A stretch of DNA of 30,308 nucleotides from a virus: the UHGV virus genome UHGV-0218987. One strand, 5' to 3'. The notes under the pieces are model-generated. The model was not told the origin of the DNA. It made no database searches and saw only the letters and a list, made by a program, of their open reading frames with translations. The position numbers were made by a program, and so were the translations under genes. Position 1 is the stretch's first letter; each line of letters starts with the position of its first letter. Shown piece by piece: positions 6,037 to 28,263 of the stretch.

Positions 6037-6053
6037 ATTACCTTTCAGGTAAT
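6037..6053. promoter_or_regulatory. Perfect inverted repeat ATTACCT-TTC-AGGTAAT (operator-like)
   Basis: 7-bp perfect arms with a 3-nt spacer; same motif family as 25061-25077, 7485-7499 and 6416-6434. Confidence 0.5.
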
Positions 6054-6089
6054 TCGCAAAACGTGCTGGATAGCAAACAAATTATTTGC

Positions 6090-6109
6090 TACTGTATAAA
6101 TATACAGTT
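6090..6109 (+). promoter_or_regulatory. LexA (SOS) box TACTGTATAAATATACAGTT overlapping the promoter of the 6129 gene
   Basis: CTGT-N8-ACAG with an AT-rich spacer, a near-ideal match to the TACTG(TA)5CAGTA consensus; flanked by a -35-like TTGCTA (6086-6091) and TATTAC (6109-6114); 20 nt upstream of the start codon. Confidence 0.75.
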
Positions 6110-6128
6110 ATTACATGGAGAAGATAAG

Positions 6129-6386
6129 ATGCAGCAGTATCACTATCCACTGGAAGACGGATTTACCGAAAGGATTCACACGCCGGGAGGCGTCAGGTCA
6201 CTGGTGGAGGGATCGCACTTGATGAAATTACTCCGGGATCTCGATAAGGATGGATTTAATGTCGATGGCCCACTTGCCGAACTGACTGCACTGATTAACT
6301 ACGTCACCAGCTCACAGATGTCTATGCGGGATCTGCAAACACATCTCGACTATTGTGCCGAACAATTACGAAAACAAACCAGATAA
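6129..6386 (+). CDS. Small SOS-regulated protein, paralog of the C-terminal domain of the Bro-N antirepressor-like protein (candidate antirepressor or modulator)
   Basis: ATG at 6129 with GGAGA RBS (the listed ORF start at 6063 lies upstream of the LexA box and is unlikely). The product aligns with the C-terminus of the 6702..7412 protein (…GV…L-E-S-LM-LL…DG…V-G…AELT…RD-QTH…Y). Confidence 0.6.
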   Translation: MQQYHYPLEDGFTERIHTPGGVRSLVEGSHLMKLLRDLDKDGFNVDGPLAELTALINYVTSSQMSMRDLQTHLDYCAEQLRKQTR

Positions 6387-6400
6387 GATTTGAAATTACC

Positions 6401-6452
6401 AAGAGGAGTGCTTATATTTACCTTTGCGGTAAATTTACATCGCACTCCTCTT
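6401..6452 (+). other. Large nested hairpin (AAGAGGAGTGC … GCACTCCTCTT) enclosing inverted repeat ATTTACC-N5-GGTAAAT
   Basis: 11-bp perfect outer stem with a roughly 30-nt loop that itself contains a TTACC/GGTAA-family inverted repeat (6416-6434); followed by a second hairpin GGCACTGG-CAAAAT-CCAGTGCC at 6468-6489. Confidence 0.5.
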
Positions 6453-6545: not shown

Positions 6546-6701
6546 ATGCGTTAAGCACAGCCATATCCGAATTATGGTGGGCTGGGCAGGGGTCCGAAAG
6601 GACGCCGGTACCACTTAGGCCGGTACGCCAACCTTGTCCAGTTCACCACCAGTAATTGGCGTTGCGGTGGTGATTAAAATCACTAAGTGGAGATAACCAC
6701 C

Positions 6702-7412
6702 ATGGCTAATGCTCAAACTGCCATCTTCAAATTTGAATCTGTTAACCCTATCCGTTCCATCATTATCGATGGCCAACCATGGTTTGTAGCCCAAGACGTT
6801 TGTAGTGCGCTGCGTATCCAAAACGTCACCCAAGCACTTGAAAAACTGGATGATGATGAAAGGTCTATGTTCAACATAGGGCATGAACATCGTGCAATTT
6901 TTGACAGCCGAGTAAAAGAGATCAACATCATCTCCGAGTCAGGCCTCTACACACTGATCCTCCGCTGCCGCGATGCGGTGACACCAGGCACTATCCCCTA
7001 CCGCTTTCGTAAATGGGTTACAGGTGAGGTTCTTCCTCAGATCCGCCGCACCGGAAGTTACATTAAAAACTCGCTCCCGCAGGAAGAACGCATAAAGATG
7101 GTTGCCGACCAGGTAGCCAACGCCACAGCATCAGCAGTGATGCAGGCAATGAAGATAGAGAACAAAACCTACAGTGCCCCACTGAAGCCCGGCTACCGCA
7201 GTCTGATTCATTCTCCGTCTGGTGTTCTCGGCCTGACGGAGAACTCACTGCTGATGAATTTGCTGAACCAGTTGCAGGAAGACGGGCACGATGTATCGGG
7301 CGCGGCGGCGGAGCTGACCACCATGTTTTGCTACATCGTTGGTGTGAGCAAATGCCTGCGTGATATCCAGACTCACGCGGAGTACATCAACGACAAGGCT
7401 GGGTTCTTCTGA
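6702..7412 (+). CDS. Bro-N / KilA-N-type antirepressor-like protein
   Basis: N-terminal Bro-N signature (FKFESVNPIRSIIIDGQPWFVAQDVCSALRIQN … YRFRKWVTGEVLPQIRRTGSY). Start at ATG 6702 with GGAGA RBS (the listed ORF starts at 6687). C-terminal about 70 aa paralogous to the 6129..6386 product. Confidence 0.75.
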   Translation: MANAQTAIFKFESVNPIRSIIIDGQPWFVAQDVCSALRIQNVTQALEKLDDDERSMFNIGHEHRAIFDSRVKEINIISESGLYTLILRCRDAVTPGTIPYRFRKWVTGEVLPQIRRTGSYIKNSLPQEERIKMVADQVANATASAVMQAMKIENKTYSAPLKPGYRSLIHSPSGVLGLTENSLLMNLLNQLQEDGHDVSGAAAELTTMFCYIVGVSKCLRDIQTHAEYINDKAGFF

Positions 7413-7456
7413 CGGGCGGCGGCACAGGGATGTGCCTTTAAATAATTCTGTACAGA

Positions 7457-7499
7457 TTGCAGACTGTGGGTGAATAGCGTACTATTACCTCAAGGGTAA
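7457..7499 (+). promoter_or_regulatory. Sigma70-like promoter (TTGCAG-N17-TACTAT) overlapped by inverted repeat TTACCT-CAA-GGGTAA
   Basis: -35 at 7457-7462 and -10 at 7480-7485 with a 17-nt spacer; the inverted repeat at 7485-7499 (5 of 6 arm positions complementary) overlaps the -10 and +1 region, suggesting repressor control. Confidence 0.5.
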
Positions 7500-7559
7500 A
7501 CGGATTGGTTTCATTTTTATTAATCCGTGTAATGAACTTATGAGATATGAGGTAATGTC

Positions 7560-7739
7560 ATGCGAAACGAAAAATTGCAGATGCGTAGAGCGCAAGCTGC
7601 CGCAAGACGTTCTTTCAATGGAAGCGTAGAGTACGTAAAAGTTACTATGACAAAAGATCACGCAAGTCGCGTATCCCGAGCTTTCTTTGATTCTCGTAAC
7701 AATAAGGAAAATTATGAGTTCGTCTGCGTCGCAGAATGA
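7560..7739 (+). CDS. Small basic ORF (59 aa) overlapping the start of the downstream gene; candidate antitoxin or regulator
   Basis: ATG at 7560 with GAGGT RBS 6 nt upstream; ends at TGA 7737-7739, overlapping the 7714 start by 26 nt in another frame. Below the 60-aa cutoff of the supplied ORF track. No homology claimed. Confidence 0.35.
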   Translation: MRNEKLQMRRAQAAARRSFNGSVEYVKVTMTKDHASRVSRAFFDSRNNKENYEFVCVAE

Positions 7740-8259
7740 TAAAAATCAAATTGTCAGATATAAGGGTCGAGTATTGCATACGCAAAATTTCTCGGCCCTT
7801 TGTGCATCTGATCTTGAGCTGAAGAAAGTATCTGATGCCTTTACCCAGTATTGGAAAACGGGATACCATCCATCTCTTGGTAAAGATGCTGCATTTGCTC
7901 GTCCGACAGAAATGCTTAAACTAAATGTCAGGCATACTCATGTCGATAACCAAGACTATATTCCAGAAGATAGTGATAAAAAACACACTGGTAAAAAATC
8001 ATCTTGGGATGCATGGAAAAATATAGCGTCTGTGCAAGTAAAATGCATACCAACAAGTGATTGCTTTTTAGTTTATTCGGTAAATCACAATCGTGATGCG
8101 CTGGTTATGTTTTTTGTTGACGCAGATGCCCACAACATAACTGAGCAAGAAGAGTTTAAAGAGGAAGCAATCACTATCAGTTATCAATTCTTTGAGAAAA
8201 CAAAAACAGAACCAATGCCTTTAGAAGAAGATCTTTTTTCTGATAAATGGAAGGAATAA
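7714..8259 (+). CDS. AT-rich cargo protein, candidate YafO-like toxin (ribosome-dependent mRNA interferase family)
   Basis: ATG at 7714 with AAGGAA RBS (the listed ORF starts at a TTG at 7687). Motif pattern GKDAAFA … KLNVRHTHV … CFLVYSV … ALVMFFVDADAH resembles, from memory, conserved YafO blocks (GRDA…, RVAHIHL, LVY, AWLLIAIL-PEPH). Followed by a strong terminator. Confidence 0.5.
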   Translation: MSSSASQNDKNQIVRYKGRVLHTQNFSALCASDLELKKVSDAFTQYWKTGYHPSLGKDAAFARPTEMLKLNVRHTHVDNQDYIPEDSDKKHTGKKSSWDAWKNIASVQVKCIPTSDCFLVYSVNHNRDALVMFFVDADAHNITEQEEFKEEAITISYQFFEKTKTEPMPLEEDLFSDKWKE

Positions 8260-8281
8260 GCCCGCGTTGCGGGCTTTTTTG
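8259..8281 (+). terminator. Rho-independent terminator after the 7714..8259 gene
   Basis: GC-rich stem GCCCGC / GCGGGC followed by six T. Confidence 0.7.
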
Positions 8282-8317
8282 TGTCTGCGGATTCCCGCCC
8301 GGGCGGCGGTGGCATTC

Positions 8318-8345
8318 GTTAAAAACAAGGCCGCGAAAGCGGCCT
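8318..8345 (-). terminator. Rho-independent terminator after the 8359..8919 gene (convergent with the 8259-8281 terminator)
   Basis: Stem GGCCGC-GAAA-GCGGCC followed on the minus strand by CTTGTTTTTAACG. Confidence 0.6.
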
Positions 8346-8357
8346 GTGACATGTCAC
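8346..8357. repeat. 12-bp perfect palindrome GTGACATGTCAC (copy 1 of 3)
   Basis: Exact palindrome immediately 3' of the 8359..8919 stop codon; identical copies at 26035-26046 and 28486-28497. Confidence 0.8.
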
Positions 8358-8358
8358 G

Positions 8359-8919
8359 CTACATTGATATATGATTCATAAAGTAGCTTAAAGATTTACT
8401 TCCCAGAAAAGAAATTTCTTTTCCTGGATATGTCGCAATAATTGAGCATGACTTATCCCCGTTAGAGGTAACAAATCCTGAATAACCTACTTGTTCTTTA
8501 CCATTTTGTTGCTTGGCTAAAAAGTAGAGGTAGCTTATCTTTTTGCCCTCTGGGTAAAACTCTGCCAAACCAGTATCGGTGATTGAATATTTTATTCTCC
8601 CGCCTTGAGTAACGTTTTCCATCTCAAGTTTAGCTATGTCTTTTCTGTTGTATTCAGCATTGATTTTCCTTTCGAAATCAATGTTGTTTTCAAATGAGTA
8701 GGAAGCAACAGTCTGAATAGATGGGAACACGTTTATCTGGATGCCTCCACAGTCGGCACAGGTATAAAGGTATGAATCAGATGGAATCCCCATAAAAGAA
8801 AACTGAGTTACCTTAAATTTATCGTTATCTCCAAAGTATTGAAGTTCGCATTTAACATTTTGCCCTGCAAAAGAAAATGCAGACATCAATATTGAAACAA
8901 AAAATATAATTGCCTTCAT
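8359..8919 (-). CDS. Secreted (signal-peptide) protein of unknown function; AT-rich cargo gene appended to the late operon
   Basis: Signal-peptide-like N-terminus MKAIIFFVSILMSAFSFA; start overlaps the stop of the 850-aa gene (TAATG); visibly AT-rich; followed by a terminator. Confidence 0.7.
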   Translation of the reverse strand: MKAIIFFVSILMSAFSFAGQNVKCELQYFGDNDKFKVTQFSFMGIPSDSYLYTCADCGGIQINVFPSIQTVASYSFENNIDFERKINAEYNRKDIAKLEMENVTQGGRIKYSITDTGLAEFYPEGKKISYLYFLAKQQNGKEQVGYSGFVTSNGDKSCSIIATYPGKEISFLGSKSLSYFMNHISM

Positions 8920-25039: not shown

Positions 25040-25077
25040 TTGACATTTAACGCATGAATTATTACCTTTAAGGTAAG
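25040..25077 (+). promoter_or_regulatory. Promoter-like region (TTGACA) with inverted repeat ATTACCT-TTA-AGGTAA
   Basis: Consensus -35 hexamer; the operator-like inverted repeat sits where the -10 would be; lies upstream of the tRNA and Gp49-like module. Confidence 0.45.
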
Positions 25078-25398
25078 CAAAGAGTTCATTCCGGTTACTA
25101 ACCTGACTGGCTTGTCGTTAAATTGAACAGGTGGAGTGAGCTTTTATTTTGAGCAGTACGGCGTATGGCACATGCGCCGATAGCGGTCTGGATACGTTTA
25201 AGGGGCACCCTCCCTTGCTCGGGCAAACGAACCAGCTAGCCGGAATGTGCAAGTCGAGCGGTTTTATTCCGCGCACGGGGATTCACCATCCCGGCGATTC
25301 GGTGTGACGCCTCGGAAGAGACGAGGGTACAACGATGAGAGCATTTATGGAGCCGCGACAAAGTGTGGCGCCTTAACAGGCTAAGTGCTCTCAGCGTT

Positions 25399-25475
25399 GT
25401 GGCATTAGCTCAGTTGGACAGAGCAACCGCCTTCTAAGCGGTTGGTCGCAGGTTCGAATCCTGCATGCCGCGCCA
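25399..25475 (+). tRNA. tRNA-Arg (anticodon UCU), argU-like, phage-borne
   Basis: Cloverleaf folded by hand: acceptor stem GTGGCAT / ATGCCGC (one G-U pair), D-arm GCTC…GAGC, anticodon stem ACCGC / GCGGT with loop CTTCTAA (anticodon TCT), T-arm GCAGG-TTCGAAT-CCTGC, discriminator G, encoded CCA. Confidence 0.85.
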
Positions 25476-25673: not shown

Positions 25674-26030
25674 ATGAGCGACCAGCAAATCGAAAAAGAA
25701 ATCGTTGAGAAAGGCAAAACCGCTCCGCGAGTTACGCCTCAATATATCGAAAGCATCATTCTTGAAGAGCATTTCTTTACTGCTTATGACGGCATTCGTG
25801 CTGCCAATATGGGCGTTGGCGATTCATGGACAGCGCATAAATCTACAGACCTCCTGACTTTCTGCGTATTGGTACTGAAGAATGGCTTCACCGTCACCGG
25901 AGAGAGTGCCTGTGCAAGTCCGGAAAACTTTGATGCGGAAATTGGTCGGAAGATTGCCCGGCAGAATGCTGTAAACAAAATCTGGATGCTCGAAGGTTAC
26001 TTGCTGAAGCAGAAGTTAAGCGAGCAATAA
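25674..26030 (+). CDS. Gp49-like phage protein (N4 gp49 / Sf6 gp66 family), function unknown
   Basis: 118-aa ORF with AGGTGAG RBS; motif block TFCVLVLKNGFTVTGESACASPENFDAEIGRKIA…KIWMLEGYLL matches my recollection of this family. Confidence 0.6.
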   Translation: MSDQQIEKEIVEKGKTAPRVTPQYIESIILEEHFFTAYDGIRAANMGVGDSWTAHKSTDLLTFCVLVLKNGFTVTGESACASPENFDAEIGRKIARQNAVNKIWMLEGYLLKQKLSEQ

Positions 26031-28192: not shown

Positions 28193-28263
28193 CACCGTGG
28201 TAATAGTTACCGTTGTGGTAATAGTACCATGCAAAATAAAGCCGCCATAGTTGGCGGCAGTAT

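What the first reader, a model, noticed from the sequence alone, without database searches (positions are those of the whole stretch)
7457..8281. AT-rich cargo module resembling a toxin-antitoxin pair with a YafO-like toxin
A 59-aa basic ORF (7560..7739) overlaps by 26 nt the start of a 181-aa gene (7714..8259) whose central region carries motif blocks recalling YafO-family toxins. The pair has its own promoter (TTGCAG-N17-TACTAT) overlapped by an operator-like inverted repeat, a strong terminator, and is visibly more AT-rich than the flanking phage genes. If the 181-aa protein is a YafO-like domain with extra N- and C-terminal extensions, this would be an atypical toxin, possibly acting in abortive infection or prophage stabilisation.
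Basis: partly seen in the sequence, partly recalled or inferred. Interest (0 to 1): 0.65.

Follow-up and report, generated by a model that had tools for sequence, protein, structure and literature searches.

The report
Prophage YafO-type toxin-antitoxin cargo pair
A two-gene cassette in an epsilon15/phiV10-like E. coli prophage encodes a long form of the YafO mRNA-cutting toxin and a small upstream partner that is probably its antitoxin; databases already name the toxin, so this is a real but fairly ordinary find.

Summary
ORF 7560..7739 (59 aa) overlaps ORF 7714..8259 (181 aa) by 26 nt. A strong terminator follows, and the unit is AT-rich.

The 181-aa protein is a YafO-family toxin:
- Pfam PF13957 scores 26.3 bits against a cut-off of 25.
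- Profile-profile alignment to a set including E. coli K-12 YafO gives 99.8% probability, E 6e-28.

It is a long form, with an 18-residue N-terminal extension, an internal insertion and a conserved C-terminal tail.

The small basic ORF is a real gene. It sits upstream of, and overlaps, the toxin gene in 53 of 53 related loci, and its dN/dS is about 0.2-0.3. It belongs to no known family and is unrelated to YafN. Its antitoxin role is inferred, not shown.

The promoter and its inverted repeat belong to the phage, not the cassette. TTACC-N5-GGTAA is a genome-wide Uetakevirus operator that flanks the repressor gene, and the cassette begins just after it.

RefSeq already names the toxin, so this is a new member of a known kind. 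Its biological role is untested.

The parts
7457..7485 (+). Promoter of the cargo slot: -35 TTGCAG (7457-7462), 17-nt spacer, -10 TACTAT (7480-7485)
   Evidence: Read from the sequence. It matches 7 of 12 consensus positions and was not reported by the scan. The -35 TTG and a -10 TA(A/C)TAT keep their positions in 9 of 10 divergent loci. The segment is shared with phiv142-3, which carries other cargo.
7485..7499 (.). Palindromic operator TTACCTCAAGGGTAA (TTACC-N5-GGTAA) abutting the -10. It is one copy of a phage-wide site.
   Evidence: With one mismatch allowed there are 8 sites in the window (5 exact) against 0.51 expected. There are 14 in TL-2011b and 14 in phiV10, two on each side of the HTH repressor gene. 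It is conserved upstream of the pair in Uetakevirus-type loci and absent from the pair in the other phage contexts.
7500..7559 (+). 5' leader of the cassette, with a non-conserved hairpin (7497-7531) and the Shine-Dalgarno GAGGTAAT (7549-7556)
   Evidence: Similarity to phiv142-3 ends at 7500.
7560..7739 (+). 59-aa basic protein (pI 10.0), the predicted cognate antitoxin. No known family.
   Evidence: An intact ORF lies upstream of and overlaps the toxin gene in 53 of 53 loci. dN/dS is 0.16-0.5, mostly 0.2-0.3, outside the overlap. It matches phrog_6685. There is no Pfam, PDB or YafN similarity.
7714..8259 (+). 181-aa long-form YafO-family toxin (RelE/HigB fold), a predicted translation-dependent mRNA endonuclease
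8258..8283 (+). Rho-independent terminator closing the unit
   Evidence: Stem of 8 pairs (6 G-C), 3-nt loop and a T run.

Best explanation
This is a bicistronic, type II toxin-antitoxin-like cargo unit (a moron) in a cargo slot of an epsilon15/phiV10-like (Uetakevirus) E. coli prophage.

The toxin. The 181-aa product is a long-form member of the YafO family (Pfam PF13957), part of the RelE/ParE superfamily. By homology it should stop translation by cutting mRNA, as E. coli YafO does in a translation-dependent way.

The partner. The 59-aa basic protein is encoded just upstream and is translationally coupled through a 26-nt overlap. It is most likely the cognate antitoxin, made in excess from a stronger ribosome-binding site, and most likely neutralises the toxin by direct binding.

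Regulation. Transcription starts at a phage-backbone promoter. Its -10 abuts a copy of the phage-wide palindrome TTACC-N5-GGTAA, which I infer to be the operator of the phage's HTH repressor. Expression would then follow the phage's lysis-lysogeny state rather than depend only on TA autoregulation.

Shown here: gene structure, family membership, fold, conserved pairing, purifying selection, cassette boundaries and the distribution of the palindrome.

Inferred: RNase activity, toxicity, neutralisation by the small protein, repressor binding, and any defence, stabilisation or host shut-off role.
For: Toxin identity:
- Pfam YafO_toxin above the gathering score.
- The family profile, searched against 1.84 billion proteins, reaches 131-135-aa proteins. 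These match E. coli K-12 YafO at E 1e-11 to 1e-17.
- The long-form profile against a classical YafO profile gives 99.8% probability, E 6e-28, over the whole YafO length.
- Shared motifs are FG(K/R)D, (R/A)H-x-H, TSD-x-LVY and AH. G56 and H76 are invariant; D58, P64, S115, Y121 and H140 are nearly invariant.
- Published work shows that YafO cleaves translated mRNA only and is neutralised by an upstream antitoxin (PMC2814082; family overview in PMC11980606).

The pairing:
- An intact small ORF overlaps the toxin start in 53 of 53 loci. These include toxins of 44-48% identity, some in another phage backbone.
- dN/dS of the small ORF is about 0.2-0.3, and both ribosome-binding sites are conserved.
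- Two truncated toxins were found: a gene that keeps an intact small ORF (L051) and a 114-aa protein record (P0022). No intact toxin was seen without the small ORF.
- Homologs of about 30% identity on Klebsiella and Rahnella plasmids have an overlapping upstream partner. Acinetobacter plasmid homologs have a small upstream gene that does not overlap.

Cargo status:
- phiV10 lacks the slot and phiv142-3 has other genes in it. Similarity breaks at 7500 and resumes at 8233/8284.
- The pair is present in 61 of 5426 complete E. coli genomes.

Operator.
Against: - The Pfam score is only just above threshold. Direct BLASTP to E. coli YafO is not significant, and Foldseek against PDB is weak (best E 0.39, HigB2).
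- No experiment bears on toxicity.
- The small protein has no recognisable antitoxin or DNA-binding domain.
- It is basic while the toxin is acidic (pI 10.0 against 5.8). This is the reverse of YafN/YafO (5.5 against 7.0).
- Its similarity to the partner proteins of remote YafO homologs is not statistically supported.
- A complex prediction could not be run.
- PADLOC has no model for either protein.
- If the repressor really shuts the promoter in lysogens, the classical picture of a constitutively expressed addiction or defence module does not fit well.
Confidence: 0.72

Rival explanations
1. The pair is a phage lytic-cycle tool rather than a defence or addiction module. The repressor keeps it silent in the lysogen. 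On induction or infection the YafO-type RNase is produced, tempered by the small protein, to degrade or remodel host or phage mRNA. This would be a host shut-off or timing function.
For: - The promoter's -10 abuts the phage-wide palindrome. The palindrome also sits on both sides of the repressor gene, before terS and before the antirepressor gene.
- The promoter and operator belong to the phage backbone.
- In another phage the pair sits inside the late tail operon, in the same orientation.
Against: - Binding of the repressor to the palindrome is inferred only. The one paper found on Uetakevirus lysogeny control, on ZX5 (PMC9782041), defines no operators.
- The pair is dispensable cargo: phiV10 and phiv142-3 lack it. 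That fits an accessory or defence role better than a core lytic function.
- AT-rich morons with their own terminator are usually expressed from the prophage (general knowledge).
Confidence: 0.2
2. The 59-aa protein is not an antitoxin. It could be a small nucleic-acid-binding regulator, or an upstream ORF whose translation only serves to deliver ribosomes to the toxin gene. The toxin would then be controlled in another way, for example by its own conserved C-terminal tail or by a host factor.
For: - It has no antitoxin family match.
- It is strongly basic, unlike typical acidic antitoxins.
- Partner proteins of remote YafO homologs are not detectably related to it.
- The long-form toxin has a highly conserved C-terminal tail, PMPLxEDLFxDKW, of unknown role.
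Against: - Purifying selection acts on the amino-acid sequence, so it is not merely an open frame.
- Conserved internal and C-terminal motifs (VTMTKEHA-RVSRAFYD, NYEFVC) persist across genera.
- An upstream partner is present at every homolog examined, from phages to plasmids.
- The gene order, antitoxin then toxin, is that of the YafO family (PMC11980606).
Confidence: 0.15
3. The 181-aa protein is a degenerate YafO-fold protein that has lost RNase activity and serves some non-toxic function.
For: The Pfam score is marginal. The protein is acidic. It carries an insertion and extensions relative to YafO.
Against: - The residues conserved across the whole family, classical YafO included, are all kept: G56, D58, H74, H76, Y121 and H140, equivalent to YafO G39, D41, H60, H62, Y88 and H109.
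- dN/dS is 0.06-0.09.
- The obligatory partner gene is what one expects if the protein is harmful on its own.
Confidence: 0.08

Closest known systems
E. coli K-12 YafN-YafO (dinB-yafNOP operon), Pfam PF13957 YafO_toxin
   Same: Same toxin family by Pfam and by profile-profile alignment over the full YafO length. The conserved motifs are the same, and the antitoxin-then-toxin gene order is the same. The expected activity, translation-dependent mRNA cleavage, comes from published work on YafO (PMC2814082).
   Different: - The toxin is 181 aa against 132 aa. It has an 18-residue N-terminal extension, an insertion of about 14 residues in the profile alignment carrying a conserved W-x2-W helix, and a conserved tail of about 19 residues.
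- The partner is a 59-aa basic protein with no similarity to YafN, a 97-aa acidic protein annotated as antitoxin YafN.
- The pair is carried by a phage rather than the chromosomal dinB (DNA polymerase IV) operon.
- No LexA box was seen. The promoter carries a phage operator instead.
HigB2 (Vibrio cholerae, 5mje/5jaa), Mtb HigB1 (7nbu), and RelE, YoeB and YafQ: ribosome-dependent mRNases of the RelE/ParE (BECR) superfamily
   Different: Sequence identity is 3-16%, there is no sequence-level match, and Foldseek is not significant. These toxins are small proteins of 84-121 residues without the insertion and tail, and their antitoxins are different.
yafO-like plus ydaS-like gene pair noted on Salmonella Typhimurium prophage mTmII (PMC9836087)
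   Same: A YafO-like gene carried by a temperate enterobacterial phage and suggested, without a test, to be a TA system with a possible role in phage resistance.
   Different: I did not compare the sequences. The proposed partner there is YdaS-like (an HTH protein), whereas here it is a 59-aa protein with no family.
PHROG families phrog_1651 and phrog_6685 (function unknown)
   Same: The two proteins match these phage protein families at E 5e-51 and 3e-45. Both genes are therefore already catalogued as recurrent phage genes.
   Different: PHROGs assigns neither a function nor a link between the two families.

Membership tests
YafO toxin family (Pfam PF13957) | Score above the Pfam gathering threshold | tested here: met
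   26.3 bits against a cut-off of 25, E 8e-6, residues 46-152 on profile positions 3-92 of 101. Among related representatives, 38 of 59 also match.
YafO toxin family (Pfam PF13957) | Homology to the founding member, E. coli K-12 YafO, over the whole domain | tested here: met
   hhalign of the long-form profile against a classical profile containing EcYafO gives 99.8%, E 6e-28, with window residues 19-162 aligned to YafO 2-131. The link runs through intermediates: direct BLASTP is not significant, and the shallow A1 profile against the single YafO sequence gives E 0.006.
YafO toxin family (Pfam PF13957) | Family-wide conserved residues retained | tested here: met
   G56 and H76 are invariant. 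F43, D58, P64, S115, Y121 and H140 are at least 90% conserved across long and classical forms. They map to YafO G39, D41, H62, Y88 and H109. Which residues are catalytic in YafO is not known to me.
YafO toxin family (Pfam PF13957) | Growth arrest and translation-dependent mRNA cleavage | not testable with these tools
   Needs expression and RNA mapping as in PMC2814082.
RelE/ParE (BECR-fold) toxin superfamily | Strand, two helices, antiparallel sheet, C-terminal helix, with structural similarity to solved RelE-type toxins | tested here: met
Type II toxin-antitoxin system | Two small adjacent co-oriented genes in one operon that always occur together | tested here: met
   The overlap is 8-26 nt, and 53 of 53 loci carry both genes in at least two phage backbones. 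There is a single promoter and terminator.
Type II toxin-antitoxin system | The antitoxin protein binds and neutralises the toxin | not testable with these tools
No more structure jobs were available.
Type II toxin-antitoxin system | Operon autoregulated by the antitoxin or TA complex at its own operator | tested here: inconclusive
   The only conserved palindrome at the promoter is a phage-wide site. It is also present where other cargo occupies the slot. The small protein has no recognisable DNA-binding domain.
YafN / Phd-YefM antitoxin family (for the 59-aa protein) | Sequence similarity to YafN or a Phd/YefM Pfam match | tested here: not met
   No BLASTP alignment to YafN at E <= 100. No Phd/YefM hit in Pfam for any of 17 family members.
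Ribbon-helix-helix (ParD/CopG-type) antitoxins (for the 59-aa protein) | Pfam or PDB profile match to an RHH family | tested here: not met
   There is only a faint ParD_like hit in 2 of 17 members (E 0.11) and DUF7890 in 11 of 17 (best E 0.008). There is no PDB match with the family profile. The strand-helix look of VKVTMTKDHASRVSRAF is my reading of the sequence only.
Known anti-phage defence systems (PADLOC-DB 2.0.0) | Match to any defence-system protein model | tested here: not met
   No hit for either protein at E <= 1.

The most novel reading that the evidence does not exclude
The pair could be a repressor-gated YafO module with a new kind of antitoxin. In this reading the small basic protein founds an undescribed antitoxin family whose charge is reversed relative to the toxin. 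The unit is held silent by the Uetakevirus repressor through the phage-wide TTACC-N5-GGTAA operator. The RNase is then released only at induction or infection, as a phage-timed host-translation switch or superinfection weapon rather than a classical addiction module. Separately, the dispersed operator network (14 sites per genome) would be an undescribed genome-wide repression scheme for this phage genus.
Probability: 0.2. Interest if true: 0.6.

Novelty: new member of a known kind. Interest (0 to 1): 0.33.

Why it matters
YafO is one of the least studied RelE-type toxins. I found no solved structure, and the family is small: about 1,000 Pfam entries by the count in PMC11980606.

This phage-borne long form adds three things:
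- A confident structural model.
- A clear list of conserved residues to mutate.
- A cognate partner unrelated to YafN, which most RefSeq annotations miss.

The pair is mobile cargo in about 1% of complete E. coli genomes and in phages of several enterobacterial genera. If it proves toxic and rescuable, it becomes a candidate for phage-phage competition or host shut-off.

Two practical points are useful for anyone annotating morons in this phage group:
- The promoter and operator belong to a reusable phage cargo slot.
- The operator is one of about 14 copies per genome.

None of this would surprise a toxin-antitoxin specialist.

Tried and rejected
- First structure prediction, using only close homologs: poor (pLDDT 57). 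It was replaced by a deeper alignment.
- Foldseek against PDB and BFVD: no significant match. The afdb50 library was unavailable.
- PDB sequence searches with single sequences and with profiles: nothing real.
- NCBIfam and PADLOC: no hits.
- Genome-contig scan: no confirmed relatives. The wider alignment was too divergent to seed a locus search.
- Rfam and tandem-repeat scans of 7300-8500: nothing. There is therefore no sign of an RNA antitoxin.
- An HMM of the small protein against partners of remote YafO homologs: not significant (Acinetobacter E 0.2, Klebsiella E 5, the 63-aa ORF of L006 not found). I therefore dropped the idea of one antitoxin family spanning all long-form YafO modules.
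- I rejected the idea that the palindrome at the promoter is the TA pair's own operator, once it turned out to be phage-wide.
- The leader hairpin 7497-7531 is not conserved.
- The RNA fold of 7480-7580 is only mildly better than shuffles (z -1.8).

Full report
**What is in the sequence**

Between 7457 and 8283 on the + strand lies a compact unit.
- A small ORF, 7560..7739 (59 aa, ATG), follows the ribosome-binding site GAGGTAAT.
- A second ORF, 7714..8259 (181 aa, ATG), follows AAGGAA. It overlaps the first by 26 nt in another frame.
- A strong intrinsic terminator lies at 8258-8276 with a T run after it.
- GC is 0.38-0.42 across the unit. It is 0.49-0.54 in the Bro-N antirepressor gene upstream (6687..7412) and about 0.55 in the structural genes from 9000 on.

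It matches only 7 of 12 consensus positions, and the scan did not report it.

**Where the window comes from**

The window is an epsilon15/phiV10-like (Uetakevirus-type) E. coli prophage. The region is 98.8% identical to phage TL-2011b. It is 99-100% identical to prophages in 61 of 5426 complete E. coli genomes.

RefSeq already calls the 181-aa product "type II toxin-antitoxin system YafO family toxin". The 59-aa ORF is "hypothetical protein" gp45 in TL-2011b. It is not annotated at all in the identical E. coli record.

**Identity of the 181-aa protein**

Sequence evidence:
- Pfam PF13957 (YafO_toxin) matches at 26.3 bits, just above the gathering score of 25.
- PHROGs places it in phrog_1651, function unknown. 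NCBIfam and PADLOC give nothing.
- Close homologs (45-99% identity) occur in Citrobacter, Hafnia, Klebsiella, Pectobacterium, Cedecea, Kosakonia and Serratia.
- A profile of these homologs, searched against 1.84 billion representative proteins, finds only 70 clusters. The weaker ones are proteins of 131-135 aa that match E. coli K-12 YafO at E 1e-11 to 1e-17.
- A profile of the long forms against a profile of these classical forms plus EcYafO gives 99.8% probability and E 6e-28. Window residues 19-162 align with YafO 2-131.
- Direct BLASTP to YafO is not significant, so the link runs through intermediates.
- Conserved across the whole set are F43, G56, D58, P64, H76, S115, Y121 and H140, within the motifs FG(K/R)D, RH-x-H, TSD-x-LVY and AH.

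Compared with YafO, the long form has three additions:
- an 18-residue N-terminal extension;
- an insertion after the H-x-H strand that carries a conserved W-x2-W;
- a conserved C-terminal tail, PMPLxEDLFxDKW.

Structural evidence:
- No YafO relative has a solved structure by sequence search.
- The first AlphaFold run, on close homologs only, was poor (pLDDT 57).
- A second run with 46 more diverse sequences gave pLDDT 90.3 and pTM 0.85.
- Foldseek ranks HigB2 first, but without significance.

The protein is therefore a RelE/HigB-fold member of the YafO family. Published work shows that YafO arrests growth, cleaves only translated mRNA and is neutralised by the upstream gene product (PMC2814082). 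A recent review lists PF13957 as a small BECR-fold family with antitoxin-then-toxin gene order (PMC11980606).

**The 59-aa ORF**

It matches phrog_6685. Intact 59-aa homologs of 75-97% identity occur in Salmonella, Lelliottia and Hafnia.

I collected 53 loci that carry a homolog of the toxin: 44 from IMG/VR, the rest from assemblies and reference phages. In all 53 an intact small ORF lies immediately upstream and overlaps the toxin start by 8-26 nt.

Evidence that it is a real coding gene:
- Outside the overlap its pairwise dN/dS is 0.16-0.5, mostly 0.2-0.3. The toxin's is 0.06-0.09.
- Conserved features are a basic N-terminal stretch (AARR), a central VTMTKEHA-RVSRAFYD, and a C-terminal NYEFVC that lies in the overlap.
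- Two truncated toxins were found: a gene that keeps an intact small ORF (L051) and a 114-aa protein record (P0022). The reverse, an intact toxin without the small ORF, was not seen.

Evidence from other contexts:
- Toxins of 44-48% identity are also preceded by an overlapping small basic ORF. In one case the pair sits in a different phage, inside a tail-gene operon (63 aa; L006, L007). In a distant relative of the present phage the small ORF is 55 aa (L053).
- Homologs of about 30% identity on Klebsiella and Rahnella plasmids have a 113-aa overlapping upstream partner. Acinetobacter plasmid homologs have a 47-98-aa upstream partner that does not overlap.

Limits on this evidence:
- An HMM of the 59-aa family does not significantly detect those remote partners. 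They are positional analogues, not demonstrated homologs.
- The small protein has no Pfam or PDB relative and no similarity to YafN.
- It is basic (pI 10.0) while the toxin is acidic (5.8). In YafN/YafO the values are 5.5 and 7.0.

Its role as antitoxin is therefore inferred from position, coupling, obligatory co-occurrence and selection. I rate that role at about 0.65-0.7.

**Promoter and operator**

I aligned the 190 nt upstream of the small ORF from ten divergent loci. The flanks have diverged. The -35 TTG, a -10 TA(A/C)TAT and the directly abutting palindrome ATTACC-N5-GGTAA are kept in nine of the ten. The promoter is therefore real.

The palindrome, however, is not the pair's own.
- TTACC-N5-GGTAA occurs five times exactly in the window (6038, 6418, 7485, 25062, 28207). 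There are three more sites with one mismatch. The 8 matches compare with 0.5 expected at that tolerance.
- It occurs 14 times in TL-2011b and 14 times in phiV10, against 0.6-0.8 expected.
- In both phages two copies lie on each side of the HTH repressor gene.
- Other copies form a tandem pair just before terS and lie before the antirepressor gene and before other + strand cargo.
- At most sites a -10-like hexamer ends on the first T of the palindrome.
- phiv142-3 has different small genes in the same slot and keeps the site.
- Loci that carry the pair in the two other phage contexts, the tail-operon phage and the distant relative L053, lack the site.

BLAST places the cassette boundary exactly after the palindrome.
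- Similarity to phiv142-3 runs to 7500 and resumes at 8233/8284.
- phiV10 lacks the whole slot, 7424-8299.

I infer that the palindrome is the operator of the phage repressor, and perhaps of a Cro-like protein. The cargo slot would then be wired to the lysis-lysogeny switch. The one study found of a Uetakevirus repressor and antirepressor defines no operators (PMC9782041), so this step is untested.

**How it most likely works**

- Shown: a mobile two-gene cassette inserted behind a backbone promoter and operator and closed by a terminator. Also shown: a YafO-family, RelE-fold protein with all family-conserved residues, and an obligatory, translationally coupled small partner under purifying selection.
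- Inferred: the large protein cuts mRNA on or near the ribosome and stops growth. The small protein, made first and from the better ribosome-binding site, binds and blocks it. The phage repressor controls transcription.
- Open: the biological role. It could be defence against other phages, stabilisation of the prophage, or a phage-timed action on host translation. If the operator really represses the promoter in lysogens, the last of these gains weight. I give it about 0.2.

**Comparison and novelty**

This is a member of a known toxin family and of a known kind of system, and public annotation already names it. Four things are not in the databases or in the papers I could search:
- the distinct long-form architecture;
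- the unannotated cognate small protein of no known family, with reversed charge;
- the cassette's occurrence in more than one phage backbone;
- its placement behind a phage-wide operator.

I rate it a new member of a known kind, of modest interest (0.33).

Noticed in passing
window 6038-6052, 6418-6432, 7485-7499, 25062-25076, 28207-28221 (exact); 3841, 8543, 28189 (one mismatch); L061 and L062 genome-wide: The palindrome TTACC-N5-GGTAA is spread through Uetakevirus genomes: 14 sites each in TL-2011b and phiV10, against fewer than 1 expected. Two sites flank each side of the HTH repressor gene and a tandem pair precedes terS. Others precede the antirepressor gene and cargo genes, usually with a -10-like hexamer ending on the first T. 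It looks like an undescribed genome-wide operator network.
   Followed up: partly
window 25040-25475: A tRNA-Arg(UCU) gene (25399-25475, + strand) sits among minus-strand structural genes. It lies downstream of a perfect TTGACA -35 and a copy of the palindrome (25062). A gp49/Sf6-gene-66 family ORF follows (25674..26030). This is another cargo unit apparently under the same control.
   Followed up: partly
window 8359-8919 (- strand): An AT-rich 186-aa ORF whose N-terminus looks to me like a signal peptide (phrog_11983, no Pfam) converges on the toxin terminator and has its own terminator (8345-8328). TL-2011b and other E. coli copies carry an ant/arc (immI-like) pair at this position instead, so this is a second swappable cargo site.
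   Followed up: no
window 8283/8284: Relative to TL-2011b and most E. coli copies, the window lacks 192 bp. The deletion removes most of a 53-aa 'transmembrane anchored protein' gene (gp43). A gene with the same annotation also follows the YafO homolog on a Rahnella plasmid (L064 2141-2302).
   Followed up: partly
window 6063-6386: A 107-aa ORF matches the families that cover the C-terminal part of the neighbouring Bro-N antirepressor (phrog_450, phrog_15539). It is a stand-alone copy of that domain, and its own copy of the palindrome lies just upstream (6038).
   Followed up: no
window 7484-7492 and 7548-7556: A perfect 9-nt inverted repeat, ATTACCTCA / TGAGGTAAT, pairs the operator half-site with the Shine-Dalgarno of the small ORF. 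The pairing is largely kept (with G-U pairs) in several divergent loci. It could occlude antitoxin translation only on transcripts that read through from upstream. The fold z-score is only -1.8.
   Followed up: partly
L053 1630-1845 and 1889-2056: In a distant relative the small ORF is duplicated in tandem. A 71-aa ORF upstream of the 55-aa partner matches the small-protein HMM at E 7e-6.
   Followed up: partly
L051 3001-3339; protein P0022: L051 has a truncated toxin gene (112 aa) next to an intact small ORF. P0022 is a 114-aa truncated toxin known only as a protein record, so its small ORF was not examined. No intact toxin without the small ORF was seen among 53 loci.
   Followed up: partly
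window 7560-8259: The charge pattern is the reverse of the usual one. The small partner has pI 10.0 and the toxin 5.8, whereas YafN is 5.5 and YafO 7.0.
   Followed up: no
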